Shown here: piece by piece, positions 9,470-16,991 of the stretch | Layout of the letters: each line of letters starts with the position of its first letter | Numbering within the stretch: the first letter of the stretch is position 1 | Assembly: GCF_033153115.1 (NCBI RefSeq) | Contig: NW_026889776.1 | Location: 2,604,001-2,668,000, forward strand | From: Saccostrea echinata | Taxonomy: Eukaryota | Reading direction: 5' to 3' | DNA length: 64,000 bases | The notes under the pieces: generated by a model | Databases searched by the model: none | Seen by the model: only the letters and a program-made list of their open reading frames with translations | What the model was told of the DNA's origin: nothing | Position numbers and translations under genes: made by a program

Positions 9470-12400
9470 TCAGTATCTGCCATGTCTTCCATCCCTTTCT
9501 CTGGACCTTCTCCTCTCTCTACTACGTGACCTTGACCTACGTTCCCGTGACCTTGATCGCCGACGCTCTCTACTGCGGCTCCTGCTTCGTCTTGTAGGTG
9601 GTGATCGTGAACGTGATCTATAAATAAATTTTAATATGTTAGTGTAAATTTATTTGAGTACTTTTTAAATAATCAATAAATTTCAGTTTAACAAACAGAA
9701 GGAACAATCTACTGAGGTTTTCTTACCTTCTAACCTTTCGACGACTTCTGCCATAGAGTTCACGTCTCAATTCTCTGGAAATCGGCTTCAAGTGCATAAA
9801 GTTACAAAAACCACCACGAGTACACTCACTTTAAACAGACAGAAATGTACAATGTTAGTATAATCATAACATTATATGGGCCATGGAAGATATTTACATA
9901 ATAAATTCCTAATTAACCAAAAATAGGCATGACAATAAATCCCTTTGAAATGATTGTCTTACCCCATTTCATACTGCCGACAACATGCTTCTCGGAAGTC
10001 TGTGACTGGTGACAATTCTGCATGAACTGGTCGGCCATTGAACCAGCGATTGTTCAATTCATTCACAGCTTTTTCTGCATCTTCCTCATATCGAAACTGA
10101 AACCAAATTGTTTACATTCAAGGACCATTTTATATGTACTATAATACATGTATTATGTAGTAAGTTTTTTTTTTTGATTTGCTGTAAAAATATTGATGCA
10201 GTACTGTAAACCTGAACAAATCAATGCCATTTGACAGATTTGTTTAGATCATATGCAAGATTTCATGCAGGGGTACAGGCATTTTGTATGTAAGAAAGAA
10301 ACAATGAAAAAATTGGCCTCTGATTCTATAAGTTGCCTTTCTAAACTATCACTAAAAATTTGCTAGACAGTGTTTTCCTCACCTTAACATAGACATTTCC
10401 CACCAAATGGTCACCCAGGTTGTCACAGACATTCATTTCTTCTATCTCTCCATACTGAAAAACAAAAACCACCAATCTATCCCAGCTTACAGCTTCTGTC
10501 TCAGAATAACAATTTATAATTTACAATTTTATAATTCCCAATTTACAAAGATTTAACTATTCCATTTACTTAATACTGCTTCACAGCAGAATAAATATTT
10601 CAAATAAAACTGTTGTCAAAATTTTTATTTCTTTGTACCATACGACACATCAGAATACATAGTAATTACTAACTGTACTGCTTGTATGTGTCCCCTTCAC
10701 AGGTGGATAAATATCAATGAGAACCATCTAGTGACAAAATTTACCTGTGCCAAACACCATATATATGACTACATGTACTCAATTAGGAATCTAGCTCTGT
10801 ATATTTGTGTAATTTCAATGGACTTTAAATATGTATTCTTATGTACGTAACACATTATTAGGGGGCTTCAGGTCCTACCTTCTCCAATTCTACATAAACT
10901 TCTTCAAAGAATTCATCATAAAATTGTTGTAATTCTGTATCGTCCATCTGGACTACAATGAATAGAAAACAGAAAAAAGCTAGAGCTGCCAGAGGAATGG
11001 ACAGATTAGGTCTTATCTCTACATTATAAATCTACAAGAAAAAACATCAGTATTCTCTGCAGTTAAACCAGGCTTTGGTTTGTGAAACATGACATTTTTA
11101 TTTGTTTCAACTTACCTTTCTTATTCTTTGACACAAGCAGAAGCACAGAGGTCATGTTAAAAGAAATGCAATTATTCTACAGGGAAAAAAATATCCCCCC
11201 AGAGAAAGAAGCTCTAAGTAATGCAGTGTGTTTGCCACAAATAAAAATGTCATGAATGGTCTTCTCTGGCAGCACCACTGATTTCTACAAAACAAAAGGG
11301 ACAACACACGTGGCCGACCTTTCACCTTATAAAGGACAGGGCCATTGGTCAAAATCCCATCAAACTTTGTACAATGTTTATATTACCAAAATATAATCTG
11401 CCAAAAATTATTCAGACAATATTCTATCTTTCATGGAGTTGTCTTTTTCTATTTAAATAAACAGATACTGTCATAATCTTGAGGAAAATTGTATGAATTG
11501 GACAAAAAAAAAAATCATTGCACAAAGTTTGCTGTCAAGAACCACCTCCACTTGGAGAGGAGTTAACCCTCAATTGACAAAAAAAAGTAGAGGAGAAATA
11601 GGCCGACATCGAGGCGAGACCCATCTGTTTGTGCTGAATGAAGAGGATGCAACACTGTTACGTTACCTTATCCTCTAACTCAGTAAAAACTTCCTCGAAA
11701 AAATCATCATAATTTTGCTGGCCTTGTACATCATCCACAGGAACTGAAAATCAATGCACAAACACTGACTCCAACTTATTATCATCATCCATGAATACAT
11801 TAAATTCATACATTTATGAGTTGCATGTGCACATAGAATTCATGTGCTTTAGGTATGCTTTTGGCATGAATACATGTGCATGAAGGAAAGTACATGTTCA
11901 ATTTAAGAAAAAAAATTATATGCTGATAGTAAGGATTCTGAGATATATTGAAAGGGCAGATCTGTTAGAGAGCTTTAAATGGTTCATATTTGTTTCTAAT
12001 TGAGGTCCAACAAAGTATATGTTGCAGAGTAACAGATTTAAAGTTTTTTCCCATAATTTTTCTGTCTCCGGGATCACTTCTAAGAATTTAAAATATTTGT
12101 ATTTTCTCCTGAATCTTTTTTTTTTCAATAGATAATGAAATGACTGAAAAATAATCCAGACTTTAAAAATACAGTGCAGGGTTTTATTGCTACCTTTTAG
12201 TCTCTCTTCATATACTGTACCTACTACCATGGGAGTGTCTTTGTCAGTATCAATCTTGGTTTGATTCTGATGTAGACATTTTTTGTATATAATACACCCT
12301 GTTTAATATGGAACAGTGGATGATTCCTTTGACATTTAGAACTTCAATGATTCATTTCTTGCTTCCTGTGTATGATACCTGCCTAAGGCATACCTAGAGC

Positions 12401-15400
12401 ATTGATTCAAAGGCTTTTAAGCTGTACCTATAGATTTTATTTTTTGTGTTTGCTCTAATAAAAACATATGAATATAAATTAAACATGTACTTGTGTCACA
12501 ACAAAAAATACTACATGTATCAGGTATCCATTGTGTGAAGCAATGATAAAATGGATATAAAAAATATTGTAAATTTTCTGACATTAAAAATTTACTTGTT
12601 TTCATATCTATTTAAAATTCAAGTTTTCATTCAAACACAAATTTTAAAGAAAGTTACAGAATCTTAAAGTTGGGCACTGGATGGTAATTGTACGTATCAA
12701 TAGAGGGAATTGTACACTATTTCTAAAACTTACTATGAGATCCATCTGCAGTCAGTGCTGTGTTCTGAGGGTTCATGTACAAATTCTCAATTAGTACTGT
12801 CTATAAAGAGAATAAAACATTGATCTGTCTTCTCAATTTATTCAAACAAAAAGAAAGGAAGTCAAAATTGCAAAATTCAGAGAGTAATTGTACCTACCTG
12901 ACTGAAAGTGGGTTTGTTGTGAAGACGTGAACAGCGTTCTCCATGTCGACAAGCTCCAATTTTGAAGTAAAATGAACAGTTTACCCTGAAATATATTATG
13001 TATCAAATAATGTATATATAAGTGAAAGGAAAATTTCTCAGGGAATGTAATCATATACAATCAAACACTTTGGCCTCAATCAAACTAGATGCTTGGAATG
13101 AATCAACATGACAGAAAACTTCCAACAAATTAATTCAATCACTTTGGCTTCAATCAAACTAGATGCTTGAATGAATCAACATGACAGAAAATTTCCAACA
13201 AATTAATTCAATATAGAACAACATACTCTGCATATTTTTCATAGTTTTATTTGTATCTGGGTGGTGGGTACTCAGAAATTTTTGTAACTTGTGATTGGTC
13301 ATCAACAAAATTATTTTGTTAAAAACTCTGATTCTACACAAAAGTACTGTAAATTTTATATCAAAAGGATGCTAGAGTCCCTCATTGACAACACCTATGT
13401 AGTTCTCACAGACCAGATCTTCTAACAAACTTGGAATTTCTATGGGCACTAATTGTGCTCCTTTATTAACATACTTTTTTAATATTCCTATAGAGCAGAA
13501 TTTATTCAAAAACTTCTGCAGGAGAAGAAAACATTTGCTGTGGCTTCCAACTTGACATTCAGACATATTCAAATATATCCACAAGGTCTTATCAATTAAC
13601 AATATTTACTTCCATTCATATGTTGACTTGATATATTTCAGTGAACTTGAAATACATGTAAAAGACACCACAGAGTCTGCCACATCTGTTTAATATTTGG
13701 ATGTTTACTCACTATAGACTATAAGACCAACTAACGACTAAATTGTATAACAAACAAGATGACTTCAACTTTTACATCCTCAACTTTCCTTATTTATGTA
13801 TCATAAATCTGCTAACAACTGGACATGGTGTTTATGTCTCCCAACTTATTTGATACTTAATTGCATGCTCCAATTACAATCATTTTTTTAAACCAAGGCA
13901 GGCTACTGACAAATAAGTTGATGTTACAGGAATTTTAACAACCTTGTTAAAGTCAAGGATTTATCAGCCTATTTTGGGAAAGGCCATTTTTGGGGAATTG
14001 GGAAAATATTATTGGCTATTTGATGAAATTGGGAAAAATTTAAAATGTTGCTTAAATCATGTATTCAGGTGTTATTCATTTAACATTTCAGCATGAACTC
14101 TAATTTGGGCACCCAAACAGACAATTATAAATATGATCCAACTTCATCACATAAGATCAATTATGAAAAATAGACCAATAAACGTAAAATTGACTTCAAC
14201 GAGTATAAAACATTTACCTATGCAACTTAGGGTAGTACATGTGTGTATGAGATTCCAATTTCGGTCATTACAGAATCTTTTTCTGGAGATTATAAACCTA
14301 CTACAAAAAATTATACAAAGTACACATTTTCTCCGTCCTCTTTTAATATGTATTAAAACATTGAAAATATATTTTTCTATCTGAAATAATGCCTACAGTC
14401 TTTACCATTCACTTGTAGATCAATTGAGTAGGTGGATATAATTTAATAAATCTATACAGTTACACAATATCACCATTTTCAGAAAAAACAGAGGAAATTC
14501 GGATTAAAAGTTGGCGATGTTTTTACAGCATTTTTAAACATGTGTTATGACTGTAGCTTTGCTAAATGAGTTATAGATGAAAATTAAAGACAATCTGACA
14601 ATTTTACTCTGTGTTTTTCCAAGATAATTAAATATAAAAGCATTGTTCACCAATTTGGGAAAAAATACTGCCAAATTGGGAAAAACTGAACTCATTTTCA
14701 ATTGGGATTGGTGCTGAATTTCGGCCCCTGAGAAGGTACTAATAAATCCCTGAAAGTCAGCATTTCGTAAATTCTATGGTCATTATAATGACCTTGTTAA
14801 CAAATATAACCTATCATTGGGTCATATTTTGGCTGACATGTTTCATATCAATTGTTAGGCCTTAGTTTTTACACTAAATTTGATGATGGAATGTTCATCA
14901 ATACATAGGAATCAAAGCAGGTGTGGCTGGTCAACAGTGGATGATTACTCCTCCTTGGCACCTGATTCCACCTCTAGAGGTCCTTGTTTTATGCCCTGTT
15001 CACAGATTTTTATTGTTTGTAGATTTTTTGAGATTGATCACTGTTCGTTATCTTCACCTTTTTCATTTAAAAGAACTAGTCAAAAAAAGTTATTAAGTAA
15101 ACAATATAATAATCTTAATTTTTTTTCCTTAAGATGCCACATTTTTTCCATGAACTACATATTTAGAGACAAACTATAATAATGGTCTTGGGATAGATGT
15201 ATAGGGTAGACTGTCAAATTTCGAAAAATGAATAACAGTTTTTAGCATTAAAAAAAAAAAAAACACTGTATAATTGAACTGTACCATCTTATCAGAAATT
15301 TGTTAGGATGTCTACTGAATTTCAGGGTAACTGATTTACTTTCCAATGTTTTTGACTAATATTTTTGCAGCCTTTTTCATTCATTTTGGGAAGAATTTTA

Positions 15401-16991
15401 CATTGAAATCTTAAAACATTTGTGAAAATGGTTAAGGACATATGCAATGTATTTTAAGCTTTAATTTCTTATTTCCTGTACAATAGCTTCATAAGTCCCA
15501 CACTTATAATGTCAGTATATGATCTTGTGCACCTCTTCTCAACAATTTTTAGGAAATACCAGCTATGATACATTTTTGGTAATATTAGCACATTTTTTTT
15601 TCTTTTTCAAAGAAAGTGGCTACCTTCGGCCACATACCTCAGATCACTTGACTAAACACTATAATCTAGTGTTATGGTGGTTTAATTTAAAAGAATGTAT
15701 CTTGATCTACTAAATATTAACTCATCTCAGGTGGTAAGTGAAGACTGACCCTAACCTCTTGGGTAGGCGCATTTCAAAATGCCTGCTTTTCAGTAGGGAA
15801 ATTGGGACGAATTTAGGTCACCAGCAGATTTTAATTCACCATGTGGGAAAACAAGATATAAAATCTACACCTCCACACCAGTTGTCAAATTGGCTAAATT
15901 GCCAATGAAAAAAACCTTTGAAAAACTCCTAAATTTTAACAAATTTTATATCTTCCCACTATATTCTAAAACTGGCAAGTTCCTTGCCTTAGGTTTAAAC
16001 TGACGAGATTGGCATACACTGGTAAACCTAGATAGAACGTTCTATCGTTAAAATGACATTGTCCTACGGACCCGGTTTAACGATAGAATTCGTTCCGTGT
16101 ATTGGCAATGTAGCAAAATAAACACGGGCGATAACTCGAACTCTGTGCATTTTCTATGAACAATCCAGAGAGTTCCGAATGTCAACATGGCGTTAAATTT
16201 GAAGCGAGGAAAAAATGTTGAGAAAATGAGTTGAATTTTCGTATTTATATGGATTATTTTTTAGGTTAAAAGGCATATACAATCTCAAAAAGGTTTGTTA
16301 TGATTAACTTGGTTGTTATTTTCAGTGCAACTCCTTTTGTATTCTTCAAAATCATTTCGGAGTGGATCCACTCCGATTTGCTACATTGCAAGTATATGGG
16401 ACGTATTCTAACTGTGGTGAGGGCTTGTCCCGAGACACAGTTAGATTATTCTAACTATGGTAAACCTTCCCCCATCAAATAAAGCAACAAGCTGGGTTAC
16501 GAAAGGTCAAATGGTACATTCAGCATAAGCCAGTTTGAAAATTAAGTAAAATCTCTGTGGTTTTATCTAGATTTGGGCTTGGATTTTTATGTCTCTGATA
16601 AAACAAGTAAGACATGATTTCCAAATGATCTGACATCAAAATGGAGTTTCTTAATTCAAGTCATTCTCTAAAACAAACGTAATATACAAACAAAATATAA
16701 GTACACTATATCTATTATGAATCTCAAATTTGTTTTCCTGTTTTTTTTTTCTTTTTTTTACCGTACAGATACAAAATCTGCAGCTAGCTGCAAAAATCAA
16801 TCTGGATCTGGTTTTGTTATATTTAACTAATTTCAGAATTTCATGAAACATCTGTAAAAATGATATTGTAAAATTAACTATAGTTATCATCAAATGCTTA
16901 AAAACAGGCCTTATACTACTGAATATGAAGCTGGAAATTAGCATTACTTGTCCTTTTCTGTGCCAAAAATCGACGCAAGGTACTCAGCCAT
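9470..16991 (-). CDS. U2AF1: Splicing factor U2AF 35 kDa subunit
   Basis: Exons 16948-16991, 12898-12985, 12734-12800, [11667-11743 or 10879-10952], 10383-10454, 9963-10096, 9727-9828, 9470-9617. Protein [44 protein letters not shown]...[25 protein letters not shown]...[44 protein letters not shown] followed by an RS domain (two CCCH fingers, UHM, RS). Confidence 0.98.
10879..10952 (-). CDS. U2AF1: U2AF1 alternative exon 4b (74 nt; (I)[24 protein letters not shown])
   Basis: Polypyrimidine tract plus ttgtag acceptor, AAG|GTAGGA donor, phase 1 to phase 0, open frame, paralogous to exon 4a. Confidence 0.92.
11116..11284 (-). other. Candidate cryptic/poison cassette exon inside U2AF1 (169 nt, or 61 nt from the internal acceptor at 11176)
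   Basis: Acceptors cccttttgttttgtag|11284 and tttttttccctgtag|11176 share a consensus donor AAG|GTAAGT at 11116. The long form has stops in all three frames. Confidence 0.5.
11667..11743 (-). CDS. U2AF1: U2AF1 alternative exon 4a (77 nt; (I)[25 protein letters not shown])
   Basis: ttttcag acceptor, AAG|GTAACG donor, phase 1 to phase 0, open frame, homologous to the UHM acidic helix. Confidence 0.93.
13066..13211. repeat. Tandem duplication of ~74 bp
   Basis: cactttggc(c/t)tcaatcaaactagatgcttg...caacaaattaattcaat occurs twice. Confidence 0.9.
13380..15065 (+). mobile_element. Degenerate Penelope-like RT fragment interrupted by a MITE
   Basis: Remnants [44 protein letters not shown] with frameshifts and stops. 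Confidence 0.65.
13954..14752. mobile_element. MITE with CA(A/G)GGATTTAT termini and 5-bp TSD (hAT5-like)
   Basis: AAAGT|CAAGGATTTAT ... ATAAATCCCTG|AAAGT. Confidence 0.75.

What the first reader, a model, noticed from the sequence alone, without database searches (positions are those of the whole stretch)
11116..11284. Cryptic cassette between U2AF1 exons 4a and 4b: poison exon or frame-restoring linker
Seen: a consensus donor AAG|GTAAGT at 11116 is served by two strong polypyrimidine+TAG acceptors (11284 and 11176). The 169-nt form has stops in all three frames. The 61-nt form stops at once after exon 3 (A-AA TAA). After exon 4a it is open ([20 protein letters not shown]) and ends in phase 1, so 4a+61nt+4b would be in frame and give a doubled acidic helix. 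Known: splicing-factor genes often autoregulate through NMD-coupled poison exons. Inference: a feedback exon whose AG recognition depends on U2AF35 itself.
Basis: partly seen in the sequence, partly recalled or inferred. Interest (0 to 1): 0.7.

Follow-up and report, generated by a model that had tools for sequence, protein, structure and literature searches.

The report
Stem-hidden poison exon in oyster U2AF1
Between two alternative exons of an oyster's core splicing-factor gene U2AF1 lies a conserved stretch with strong splice signals, predicted to be hidden inside an RNA stem; it likely acts as a normally skipped message-destroying or decoy exon, but no spliced copy of it was seen, whereas a second stop-bearing exon just downstream is spliced in a related oyster.

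Summary
Contigs of 8 RNA runs show exons 4a and 4b used one at a time. None has a joint at cassette X, and all read through it unspliced. This is weak evidence, because one run's contigs also lost an abundant joint. X is still not random sequence. Its donor is the only AAG|GTAAGT in 128 kb. Its intron differs by about 7% in another oyster, against about 19% at synonymous sites. A perfect 18-bp stem (0 of 200 shuffles) encloses X61 and both its splice sites. Two clams share a stop-bearing exon-like block in the same intron. Best reading (0.55): a structure-masked poison or decoy cassette. The in-frame linker is unlikely (0.04), and U2AF35 dependence is untested. Two things lie outside the given coordinates. 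A 71-nt stop-bearing exon Y (10674-10744), shaped like a recursive-splicing exon, is spliced in 2 runs of the relative. The 4a/4b duplication spans bivalves, gastropods and cephalopods and involves a different exon from the vertebrate U2AF1 duplication. The scan's earlier notes showed no U2AF1 case.

The parts
11667..11743 (-). Exon 4a (77 nt), ancestral-length copy of the acidic-helix exon
   Evidence: 4a-to-exon-5 joint in 8 of 8 runs laid; exon-3-to-4a joint in 5 of 8, loose end carrying exon 3 in the other 3
10953..11666 (-). Conserved 714-nt intron between 4a and 4b; folds more stably than shuffles
   Evidence: About 51 substitutions and 29 gap letters in a related oyster (estimate); z -4.4, 0 of 20 shuffles; unspliced contigs over it in 8 of 8 runs
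11358..11534 (-). Second inverted repeat (arms 11508-11534 and 11358-11384), upstream of X
   Evidence: duplex -23.5 kcal/mol; conservation not testable (table cut)
11116..11284 (-). Cassette X, long form (169 nt), stops in all frames; holds the 5' arm of the stem
   Evidence: no joint in 8 of 8 runs
11237..11254 (-). 5' arm of the 18-bp perfect stem
   Evidence: pair probabilities 0.97-1.0; state in the relative not visible (table cut after 11187)
11116..11176 (-). Cassette X, short form (61 nt), in the 131-nt loop of the stem with its acceptor and donor
   Evidence: 2 listed substitutions in the relative (11124, 11132); donor and acceptor AG unchanged in the listed rows
11088..11105 (-). 3' arm of the stem, at +11 to +28 of the X donor
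   Evidence: no listed substitution in 11075-11123 in 3 of 3 runs of the relative
10879..10952 (-). Exon 4b (74 nt), derived copy, one residue shorter
   Evidence: 4b-to-exon-5 joint in 6 of 8 runs
10674..10744 (-). Cassette Y (71 nt): weak acceptor followed directly by GTAAAT, own donor ACA|GTTAGT, stop in frame after 4b; recursive-splicing-exon-like poison exon
   Evidence: 4b-to-Y junction in X18 (55-nt contig, depth 60.6) and X6; Y-to-exon-5 joint in X6 (depth 22.8) (re-read); 0 of 5 runs of the window's own or a near-identical organism

Best explanation
X is a conserved pair of acceptors and one consensus donor inside the intron between the mutually exclusive exons 4a and 4b of oyster U2AF1; it is predicted to sit in the loop of an 18-bp RNA stem and likely works as a normally skipped poison or decoy cassette. 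Shown: 4a and 4b are each spliced between exons 3 and 5; the sites, stops and complementary arms exist; the intron is conserved in a second oyster. Inferred: the stem forms while the RNA is made and keeps X skipped. When the stem is late or blocked, X's sites would engage U1 and U2AF and either stall removal of the intron (decoy) or be spliced in. Of the 7 X-containing routes tested from exon 3 or 4a, 6 end in a premature stop 345 nt or more (X61 or X169 after exon 3, X169 after 4a) or 276 nt (4a+X61+exon 5) above the last junction, so the message would be degraded. The likely effect is to trim U2AF35 output and to clear transcripts that start to take both 4a and 4b. A second cassette, Y, does the frame-breaking job visibly in the relative. 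With its weak tract and CAG|G acceptor it is the better candidate for sensing U2AF35 itself (inference).
For: Unique consensus donor. Intron divergence of about 51 of 714 against about 19% at synonymous sites, and X core 4 of 100. An unalignable 87-nt stretch in the next intron of the same contig shows local background. The 18-bp stem: 0 of 200 shuffles reach it, 2 of 89 window tiles exceed it, duplex -24.0 kcal/mol. A mussel-like locus has its own 15-bp perfect stem (29-nt arms) in the same intron, 0 of 200 shuffles. Two clam-like loci share a 42 of 44 nt block there (0 of 100 shuffles), a U-rich CAG acceptor followed by an AG|GTA donor; the one translated by script (L005) stops in both frames. 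Precedents: BRD2 3b and BRD3 5b (PMC10789245); SF3B1, OGT and ARGLU1 decoys, whose junctions are rare or unseen without NMD inhibition (PMC6097662).
Against: No joint at any X site in 8 of 8 runs (6 samples, 4 studies), although Y joints at about 2.5% and 6% of the 4b-to-exon-5 depth did survive in X18 and X6. X is not significantly more conserved than the rest of its intron (4 of 100 against 47 of 614, p 0.29). No covariation could be tested, and the 5' arm and the 11284 acceptor are not visible in the relative (table cut). The oyster intron does not align to the clam or mussel introns (13, 48 and 67 of 100 shuffles score as well), so the clam block is a positional analogue, not a shown homologue. 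The clam introns have no significant stem (135 and 125 of 200 shuffles), and the mussel intron gave no acceptor at the script's threshold. Retention is not shown: this intron is part of both longer introns, so unspliced cover is expected.
Confidence: 0.55

Rival explanations
1. X is never an exon. The stems and the pseudo-donor are a structural or silencer module that sets the 4a versus 4b choice or blocks 4a-to-4b joining, for example by U1 binding or by compacting the intron.
For: The whole intron, not X alone, is conserved and folds strongly. No direct 4a-to-4b joint and no X joint in 8 of 8 runs. Intronic RNA structure steers duplicated exons in SCN9A (PMC12772994, abstract).
Against: It does not explain two strong acceptors placed as an exon ahead of the donor, nor the clam acceptor-donor block. 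4a+4b is already frameshifting (151 nt), so NMD alone could give exclusivity.
Confidence: 0.25
2. The X sites are incidental cryptic sites in an intron conserved for another reason.
For: No junctions. X is not more conserved than its intron (p 0.29). Only one diverged oyster lineage could be compared.
Against: A unique consensus donor, two top-rank acceptors and an 18-bp stem bracketing them are each rare.
Confidence: 0.12
3. X61 is a frame-restoring linker that gives a 4a+X61+4b protein with a doubled acidic helix.
For: The frame is open in the window, and the 2 listed substitutions in the relative create no stop. Some database models join 4a and 4b (P0017, P0021, P0022, P0180, P0181).
Against: About 9% expected by chance. 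0 of 246 fetched proteins hold an X peptide. The double-exon models use other, mutually different joins and look like gene-prediction fixes (inference). The clam block stops after 4a. An insert of about 45 residues would fall inside the UHM domain (alignment to 1jmt).
Confidence: 0.04
4. The conserved, structured intron hosts a small non-coding RNA (snoRNA or microRNA), and the splice-like sites are by-products.
For: Strong fold and stable-looking intron cover.
Against: An Rfam scan of 10300-12800 gave 1 hit, SNORD112 at 20.9 bits against a cut-off of 58, E 0.71. The stem's loop is 131 nt, not a pre-microRNA hairpin.
Confidence: 0.04

Closest known systems
Structure-enclosed poison exons BRD2 3b and BRD3 5b (PMC10789245; abstract and first part of Results read)
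   Same: A conserved cryptic exon with canonical sites, a stop on inclusion, and complementary regions on both sides (-29 and -34 kcal/mol there, -24 here).
   Different: There inclusion and structure were proven by RNA-seq, antisense and compensatory mutants. Here neither is shown. X lies between mutually exclusive exons, and one arm lies inside the long form of the exon.
Decoy exons in SF3B1 intron 4, OGT and ARGLU1 (PMC6097662; abstract and Results read)
   Same: Splicing-related gene, conserved intron, cryptic non-coding cassette with alternative splice sites, junctions rare or unseen in normal cells.
   Different: Decoys are enriched in retained introns above 1 kb; this one is 714 nt. Retention and U2AF binding are not shown here.
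Vertebrate U2AF1 exons Ab and 3 with NMD of the double-inclusion form (PMC5224494 and PMC6547761, passages; PMC4494069, passages, dates it to jawed vertebrates)
   Same: Same gene, tandem duplicated mutually exclusive exons in the UHM, frameshift if both or neither are used.
   Different: Vertebrates duplicated the 67-nt exon, which is single here (12734-12800). Molluscs duplicated the next exon (77 and 74 nt). The passages read mention no separate poison cassette between the vertebrate copies.
Recursive-splicing (RS) exons (PMC6224609; summary and Introduction read)
   Same: Y begins with a partial donor. Joining it to 4b rebuilds a good donor that competes with Y's own, and both the first junction and full inclusion are seen in the relative.
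   Different: The second, recursive step is not shown. The host intron is only 424 nt.

Membership tests
Poison (NMD-coupled) exon: X | Canonical splice sites and a premature stop more than 50 nt above the last junction on inclusion | tested here: met
   all X routes tested except 4a+X61+4b stop 276-516 nt above the last junction
Poison (NMD-coupled) exon: X | The exon is spliced into transcripts | tested here: inconclusive
   0 of 8 runs, but contigs drop branches: X18 lost even the exon-3-to-4b branch
Poison (NMD-coupled) exon: X | Inclusion rises under NMD inhibition | not testable with these tools
   No such data offered
Poison (NMD-coupled) exon: X | Conservation above neutral background | tested here: met
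   4 of 100 against about 17-19% synonymous divergence, p 7e-5; not above its own intron, p 0.29; one relative only
Structure-enclosed poison exon (BRD2/BRD3 type) | Complementary regions flank the exon | tested here: met
Structure-enclosed poison exon (BRD2/BRD3 type) | Both arms conserved or covarying; disruption raises inclusion | tested here: inconclusive
   3' arm unchanged in the listed rows; 5' arm beyond the cut of the table; no experiment
Decoy exon (Parra et al. 2018) | Host intron is retained and the cassette's sites promote retention | tested here: inconclusive
   Unspliced contigs in 8 of 8 runs, but contigs cannot give levels or link both flanking splices
Autoregulatory exon of U2AF1 | Inclusion responds to U2AF35 level | not testable with these tools
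   Only indirect hints
Mutually exclusive duplicated exons: 4a/4b | Homologous tandem exons each joined to the same flanks, not to each other | tested here: met
   (no 4a-to-4b joint in 8 of 8 runs)
RS-exon: Y | Starts with a partial donor, is spliced to the preceding exon and rebuilds a donor | tested here: met
   in the relative only
RS-exon: Y | The rebuilt donor is used in a second step | not testable with these tools
   Needs lariat reads or a part-spliced reporter

The most novel reading that the evidence does not exclude
Molluscs independently rebuilt the vertebrate U2AF1 design on a different exon before bivalves, snails and cephalopods split: twin mutually exclusive UHM exons plus NMD feedback. 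Oysters run it with a two-part rheostat, a stem-masked poison or decoy exon between the twins and a recursive-splicing exon in a 424-nt intron whose weak acceptor senses U2AF35 itself.
Probability: 0.22. Interest if true: 0.72.

Novelty: new variant of a known kind. Interest (0 to 1): 0.5.

Why it matters
U2AF35 reads the AG of nearly every intron. How its own level is set is described mainly for vertebrates, through exons Ab and 3. A second, independent exon duplication in the same domain, kept across molluscs and surrounded by stop-bearing cassettes, would show that the gene is repeatedly driven to the same control design. X and Y fit in a minigene of about 2.4 kb, which makes structure masking, decoy action and short-intron recursive splicing testable together. 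Each mechanism is already known from other genes, and X itself is not yet shown to splice, so the interest is moderate.

Tried and rejected
Junction search in contigs: no X joint. Only 8 of the 24 listed runs were laid, all as contigs and none as raw reads. Lack of cover over introns 2-3, 3-4a and 5-6 in the relative was not used as proof that they diverged, since they may simply be spliced out. Protein route to X transcripts: X61 alone is too short to search, and two region searches with a stored oyster isoform (33 shorter and 91 near-length hits) gave genomic read-throughs and no X or Y peptide. Homology of X to the clam or mussel introns was rejected by shuffles. A Y-like CAG|GTAA site 422 nt after 4b in the mussel-like locus is the best local match, but 58 of 100 shuffles score as well. 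snoRNA: rejected. Repeat origin: X matches only the window and its second copy in G000 (that search skips common words). The second copy on C30 is 99.6% identical over 16 kb and identical in X, read as the other haplotype, and gives no comparative power. The argument from AG-free zone length is weak. Folding of the mussel-like and clam-like introns as wholes is unremarkable (z -1.07 and -0.05). The local fold of 11070-11310 alone is only z -1.85, with 10 of 200 shuffles as good. Four literature searches bearing on a molluscan U2AF1 duplication listed none; subscription papers and supplements were not seen.

Full report
Gene and coordinates. The window holds an oyster-type U2AF1 gene on the minus strand. 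The exon 6 peptide is 100% identical to oyster U2AF small-subunit proteins, and an oyster homologue aligns to human U2AF35 (1jmt) and fission-yeast U2AF23. RNA contigs fix the exons: 2 (12898-12985), 3 (12734-12800), 4a (11667-11743), 4b (10879-10952), 5 (10383-10454), 6, 7 and 8. The start codon is at 16991. A second copy on G000:C30 is 99.6% identical over 16 kb and is read as the other haplotype.

Observation. The donor AAG|GTAAGT is the only one in 128,000 positions of the window. Both acceptors have 11 of 12 pyrimidines, a level met by 30 sites in the window. The open frame after 4a is expected about 9% of the time. 4a+4b can also be put in frame without X through a CAG 5 nt inside 4b.

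RNA evidence. I laid 8 of 24 listed runs (6 samples, 4 studies), all as assembled contigs. The 4a-to-5 joint is in 8 of 8 and the 4b-to-5 joint in 6 of 8. A direct 4a-to-4b joint is in 0 of 8, and a joint at 11116, 11176 or 11284 is in 0 of 8. All 8 have an unspliced contig across the X donor. This negative is weak: the X18 contig runs unbroken over 10879-11696 and so lost even the abundant exon-3-to-4b branch. It is not empty either, because rare joints of another cassette did survive. Retention of this intron is not shown, since it belongs to both longer introns.

Conservation. Three runs (X6 and X18, organism C; X10, unlabelled but with the same differences) come from a diverged relative. 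Their exons differ at 19 of 499 bases, about 19% of synonymous sites if all changes are silent. The 4a-4b intron aligns end to end with about 51 substitutions in 714 bases plus 29 gap letters (estimates). In the same X18 data an 87-nt stretch of the next intron is replaced by 103 unalignable letters. The substitution table was cut (62 rows hidden). It appears to be complete up to 11187, and I assumed so. In the listed rows 11075-11123 and 11133-11183 are unchanged, which covers the donor, the downstream arm and the 11176 AG. X61 has two changes. Five inserted letters somewhere in 10923-11537 are not located (my arithmetic on the totals). X's core (4 of 100) is far below synonymous divergence (p 7e-5) but not below the rest of the intron (p 0.29). 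The 3' third of the intron is somewhat better kept than the remainder (10 of 235 against 41 of 479, p 0.04, window set by the cut of the table).

Structure. An inverted repeat brackets X61. 11237-11254 pairs perfectly with 11088-11105, which is +11 to +28 of the donor, leaving acceptor, exon and donor in a 131-nt loop. No shuffle of 200 exceeds 13 bp, and 2 of 89 tiles of the window have a longer stem. Pair probabilities are 0.97-1.0 and the duplex is -24.0 kcal/mol. The whole intron folds at z -4.4 on 20 shuffles; the local region alone reaches only z -1.85. Covariation could not be tested.

Other bivalves. A metagenome scan gave 3 genomic loci with the same 4a-4b tandem. The mussel-like L004 has its own 15-bp perfect stem in this intron (0 of 200 shuffles), but no acceptor passed the script's threshold. 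The clam-like L003 and L005 share a 42 of 44 nt block (0 of 100 shuffles) made of a U-rich CAG acceptor and a second CAG, followed by an AG|GTA donor. The L005 cassette stops in both frames; L003 does too by my reading. They have no significant stem. None of these introns aligns to the oyster one. The common theme is therefore a stop-bearing exon-like element, a stem, or both, between the twins, not a shared sequence. An Octopus vulgaris gene model (P0187) also puts a short stop-bearing segment after 4a, which is a lead only.

A second cassette, Y. One search lists a 55-nt X18 contig and an X6 loose end at 10753, and an X6 joint 10454-10687 with 15 letters between. Re-reading them against the window gives a splice from the end of 4b to 10744 and one from 10674 to exon 5. 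The rebuilt junction is exactly 55 nt, and its three mismatches vanish. Y is 71 nt and stops in frame after 4b, 331 nt above the last junction. Its acceptor is weak (6 of 12 pyrimidines) and is followed directly by GTAAAT, so joining it to 4b rebuilds a donor. That is the definition of an RS-exon (PMC6224609, Introduction). X6 shows full inclusion (22.8 against 355.9 for 4b-to-5). X18 shows the first junction (60.6 against 2457) with the rest of the intron unspliced, as a recursive intermediate would. Y is seen in 2 of 3 runs of the relative and in 0 of 5 runs of the window's own or a near-identical organism, where the sites are present in the DNA.

The twin exons. Peptides of both types occur in oysters, Sinanodonta, Mercenaria, Pecten, Pinctada, the gastropod Gigantopelta and Octopus, and in single gene models or loci of mussels; a chiton has the b type. 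A tree of 43 rows on only 24 columns groups the a type (91/85) and the b type (90/85), neither starred, with the annelid, nemertean and deuterostome rows outside both. This suggests one duplication before the molluscan classes split. That these classes are of Cambrian age is recalled, not from a call. Vertebrates duplicated the preceding 67-nt exon instead (PMC5224494, passages; PMC4494069, passages), and the double-inclusion form is proposed as an NMD feedback loop (PMC6547761, passages). Four searches listed no paper on the molluscan case. Subscription journals and supplements were not seen.

Mechanism. Shown: the twin exons, the sites, the stops, the complementary arms, conservation in one relative, and Y splicing in that relative. 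Inferred: the stem forms and keeps X skipped, as flanking complementary regions do for BRD2 3b and BRD3 5b (PMC10789245). X's sites act as a decoy or a rare poison exon, like the cryptic cassettes of SF3B1, OGT and ARGLU1 (PMC6097662). Together with Y and the 4a+4b frameshift they would trim U2AF35 output (0.55). Human data associate long tracts and AG-free zones with repression by U2AF35 (PMC4402522, passages), but X's zones are long only relative to exons 3-5. That weak-tract acceptors depend most on U2AF35 is recalled knowledge; on that basis Y is the better sensor. Rivals: a pure structural module (0.25), incidental sites (0.12), a linker (0.04), a non-coding RNA (0.04).

Verdict. X is a real, conserved, structured element whose splicing is still unshown. 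It sits in a locus that carries a seen poison exon and an apparently independent exon duplication. New variant of a known kind; interest 0.5.

Noticed in passing
window 10674-10744 (-): Cassette Y, a stop-bearing exon shaped like a recursive-splicing exon, spliced in 2 of 3 runs of the related oyster.
   Followed up: yes
window 11667-11743 and 10879-10952 (-): The 4a/4b duplication is found across bivalves, a gastropod and Octopus, on a different exon from the vertebrate U2AF1 duplication. 4b is one residue shorter at the end of the acidic helix.
   Followed up: yes
L003 about 1585-1650 and L005 about 2113-2180: A 44-nt block shared by two clam-like loci in the 4a-4b intron, with tandem CAG acceptors, a downstream donor and stops.
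   Followed up: partly
L004 3092-3120 and 3357-3385: A 29-nt, 90% inverted repeat in the mussel-like 4a-4b intron, unrelated in sequence to the oyster stem.
   Followed up: partly
window 11031 and 10985 (-): Two more pyrimidine-rich acceptors upstream of 4b. The one at 10985 would add 11 codons in frame; the one at 11031 would stop. Neither is seen in contigs.
   Followed up: partly
window 10947-10952 (-): A CAG 5 nt inside 4b would put 4a+4b in frame. Database models P0017 and P0123 have this double-helix form, which is probably a prediction artefact. Other oysters annotate a one-residue-longer 4b (P0006, P0009).
   Followed up: partly
G000:C30 about 2908300-2934300: A second copy of at least 26 kb of the window at 99.5-99.6% identity, probably an uncollapsed haplotype.
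   Followed up: partly
window about 13070-13215: A roughly 70-nt tandem duplication in intron 1, seen by eye.
   Followed up: no
protein P0187 (Octopus vulgaris model): Exon 4a is followed by a short stop-bearing segment that matches neither 4b nor exon 5; possibly a cephalopod poison exon.
   Followed up: no
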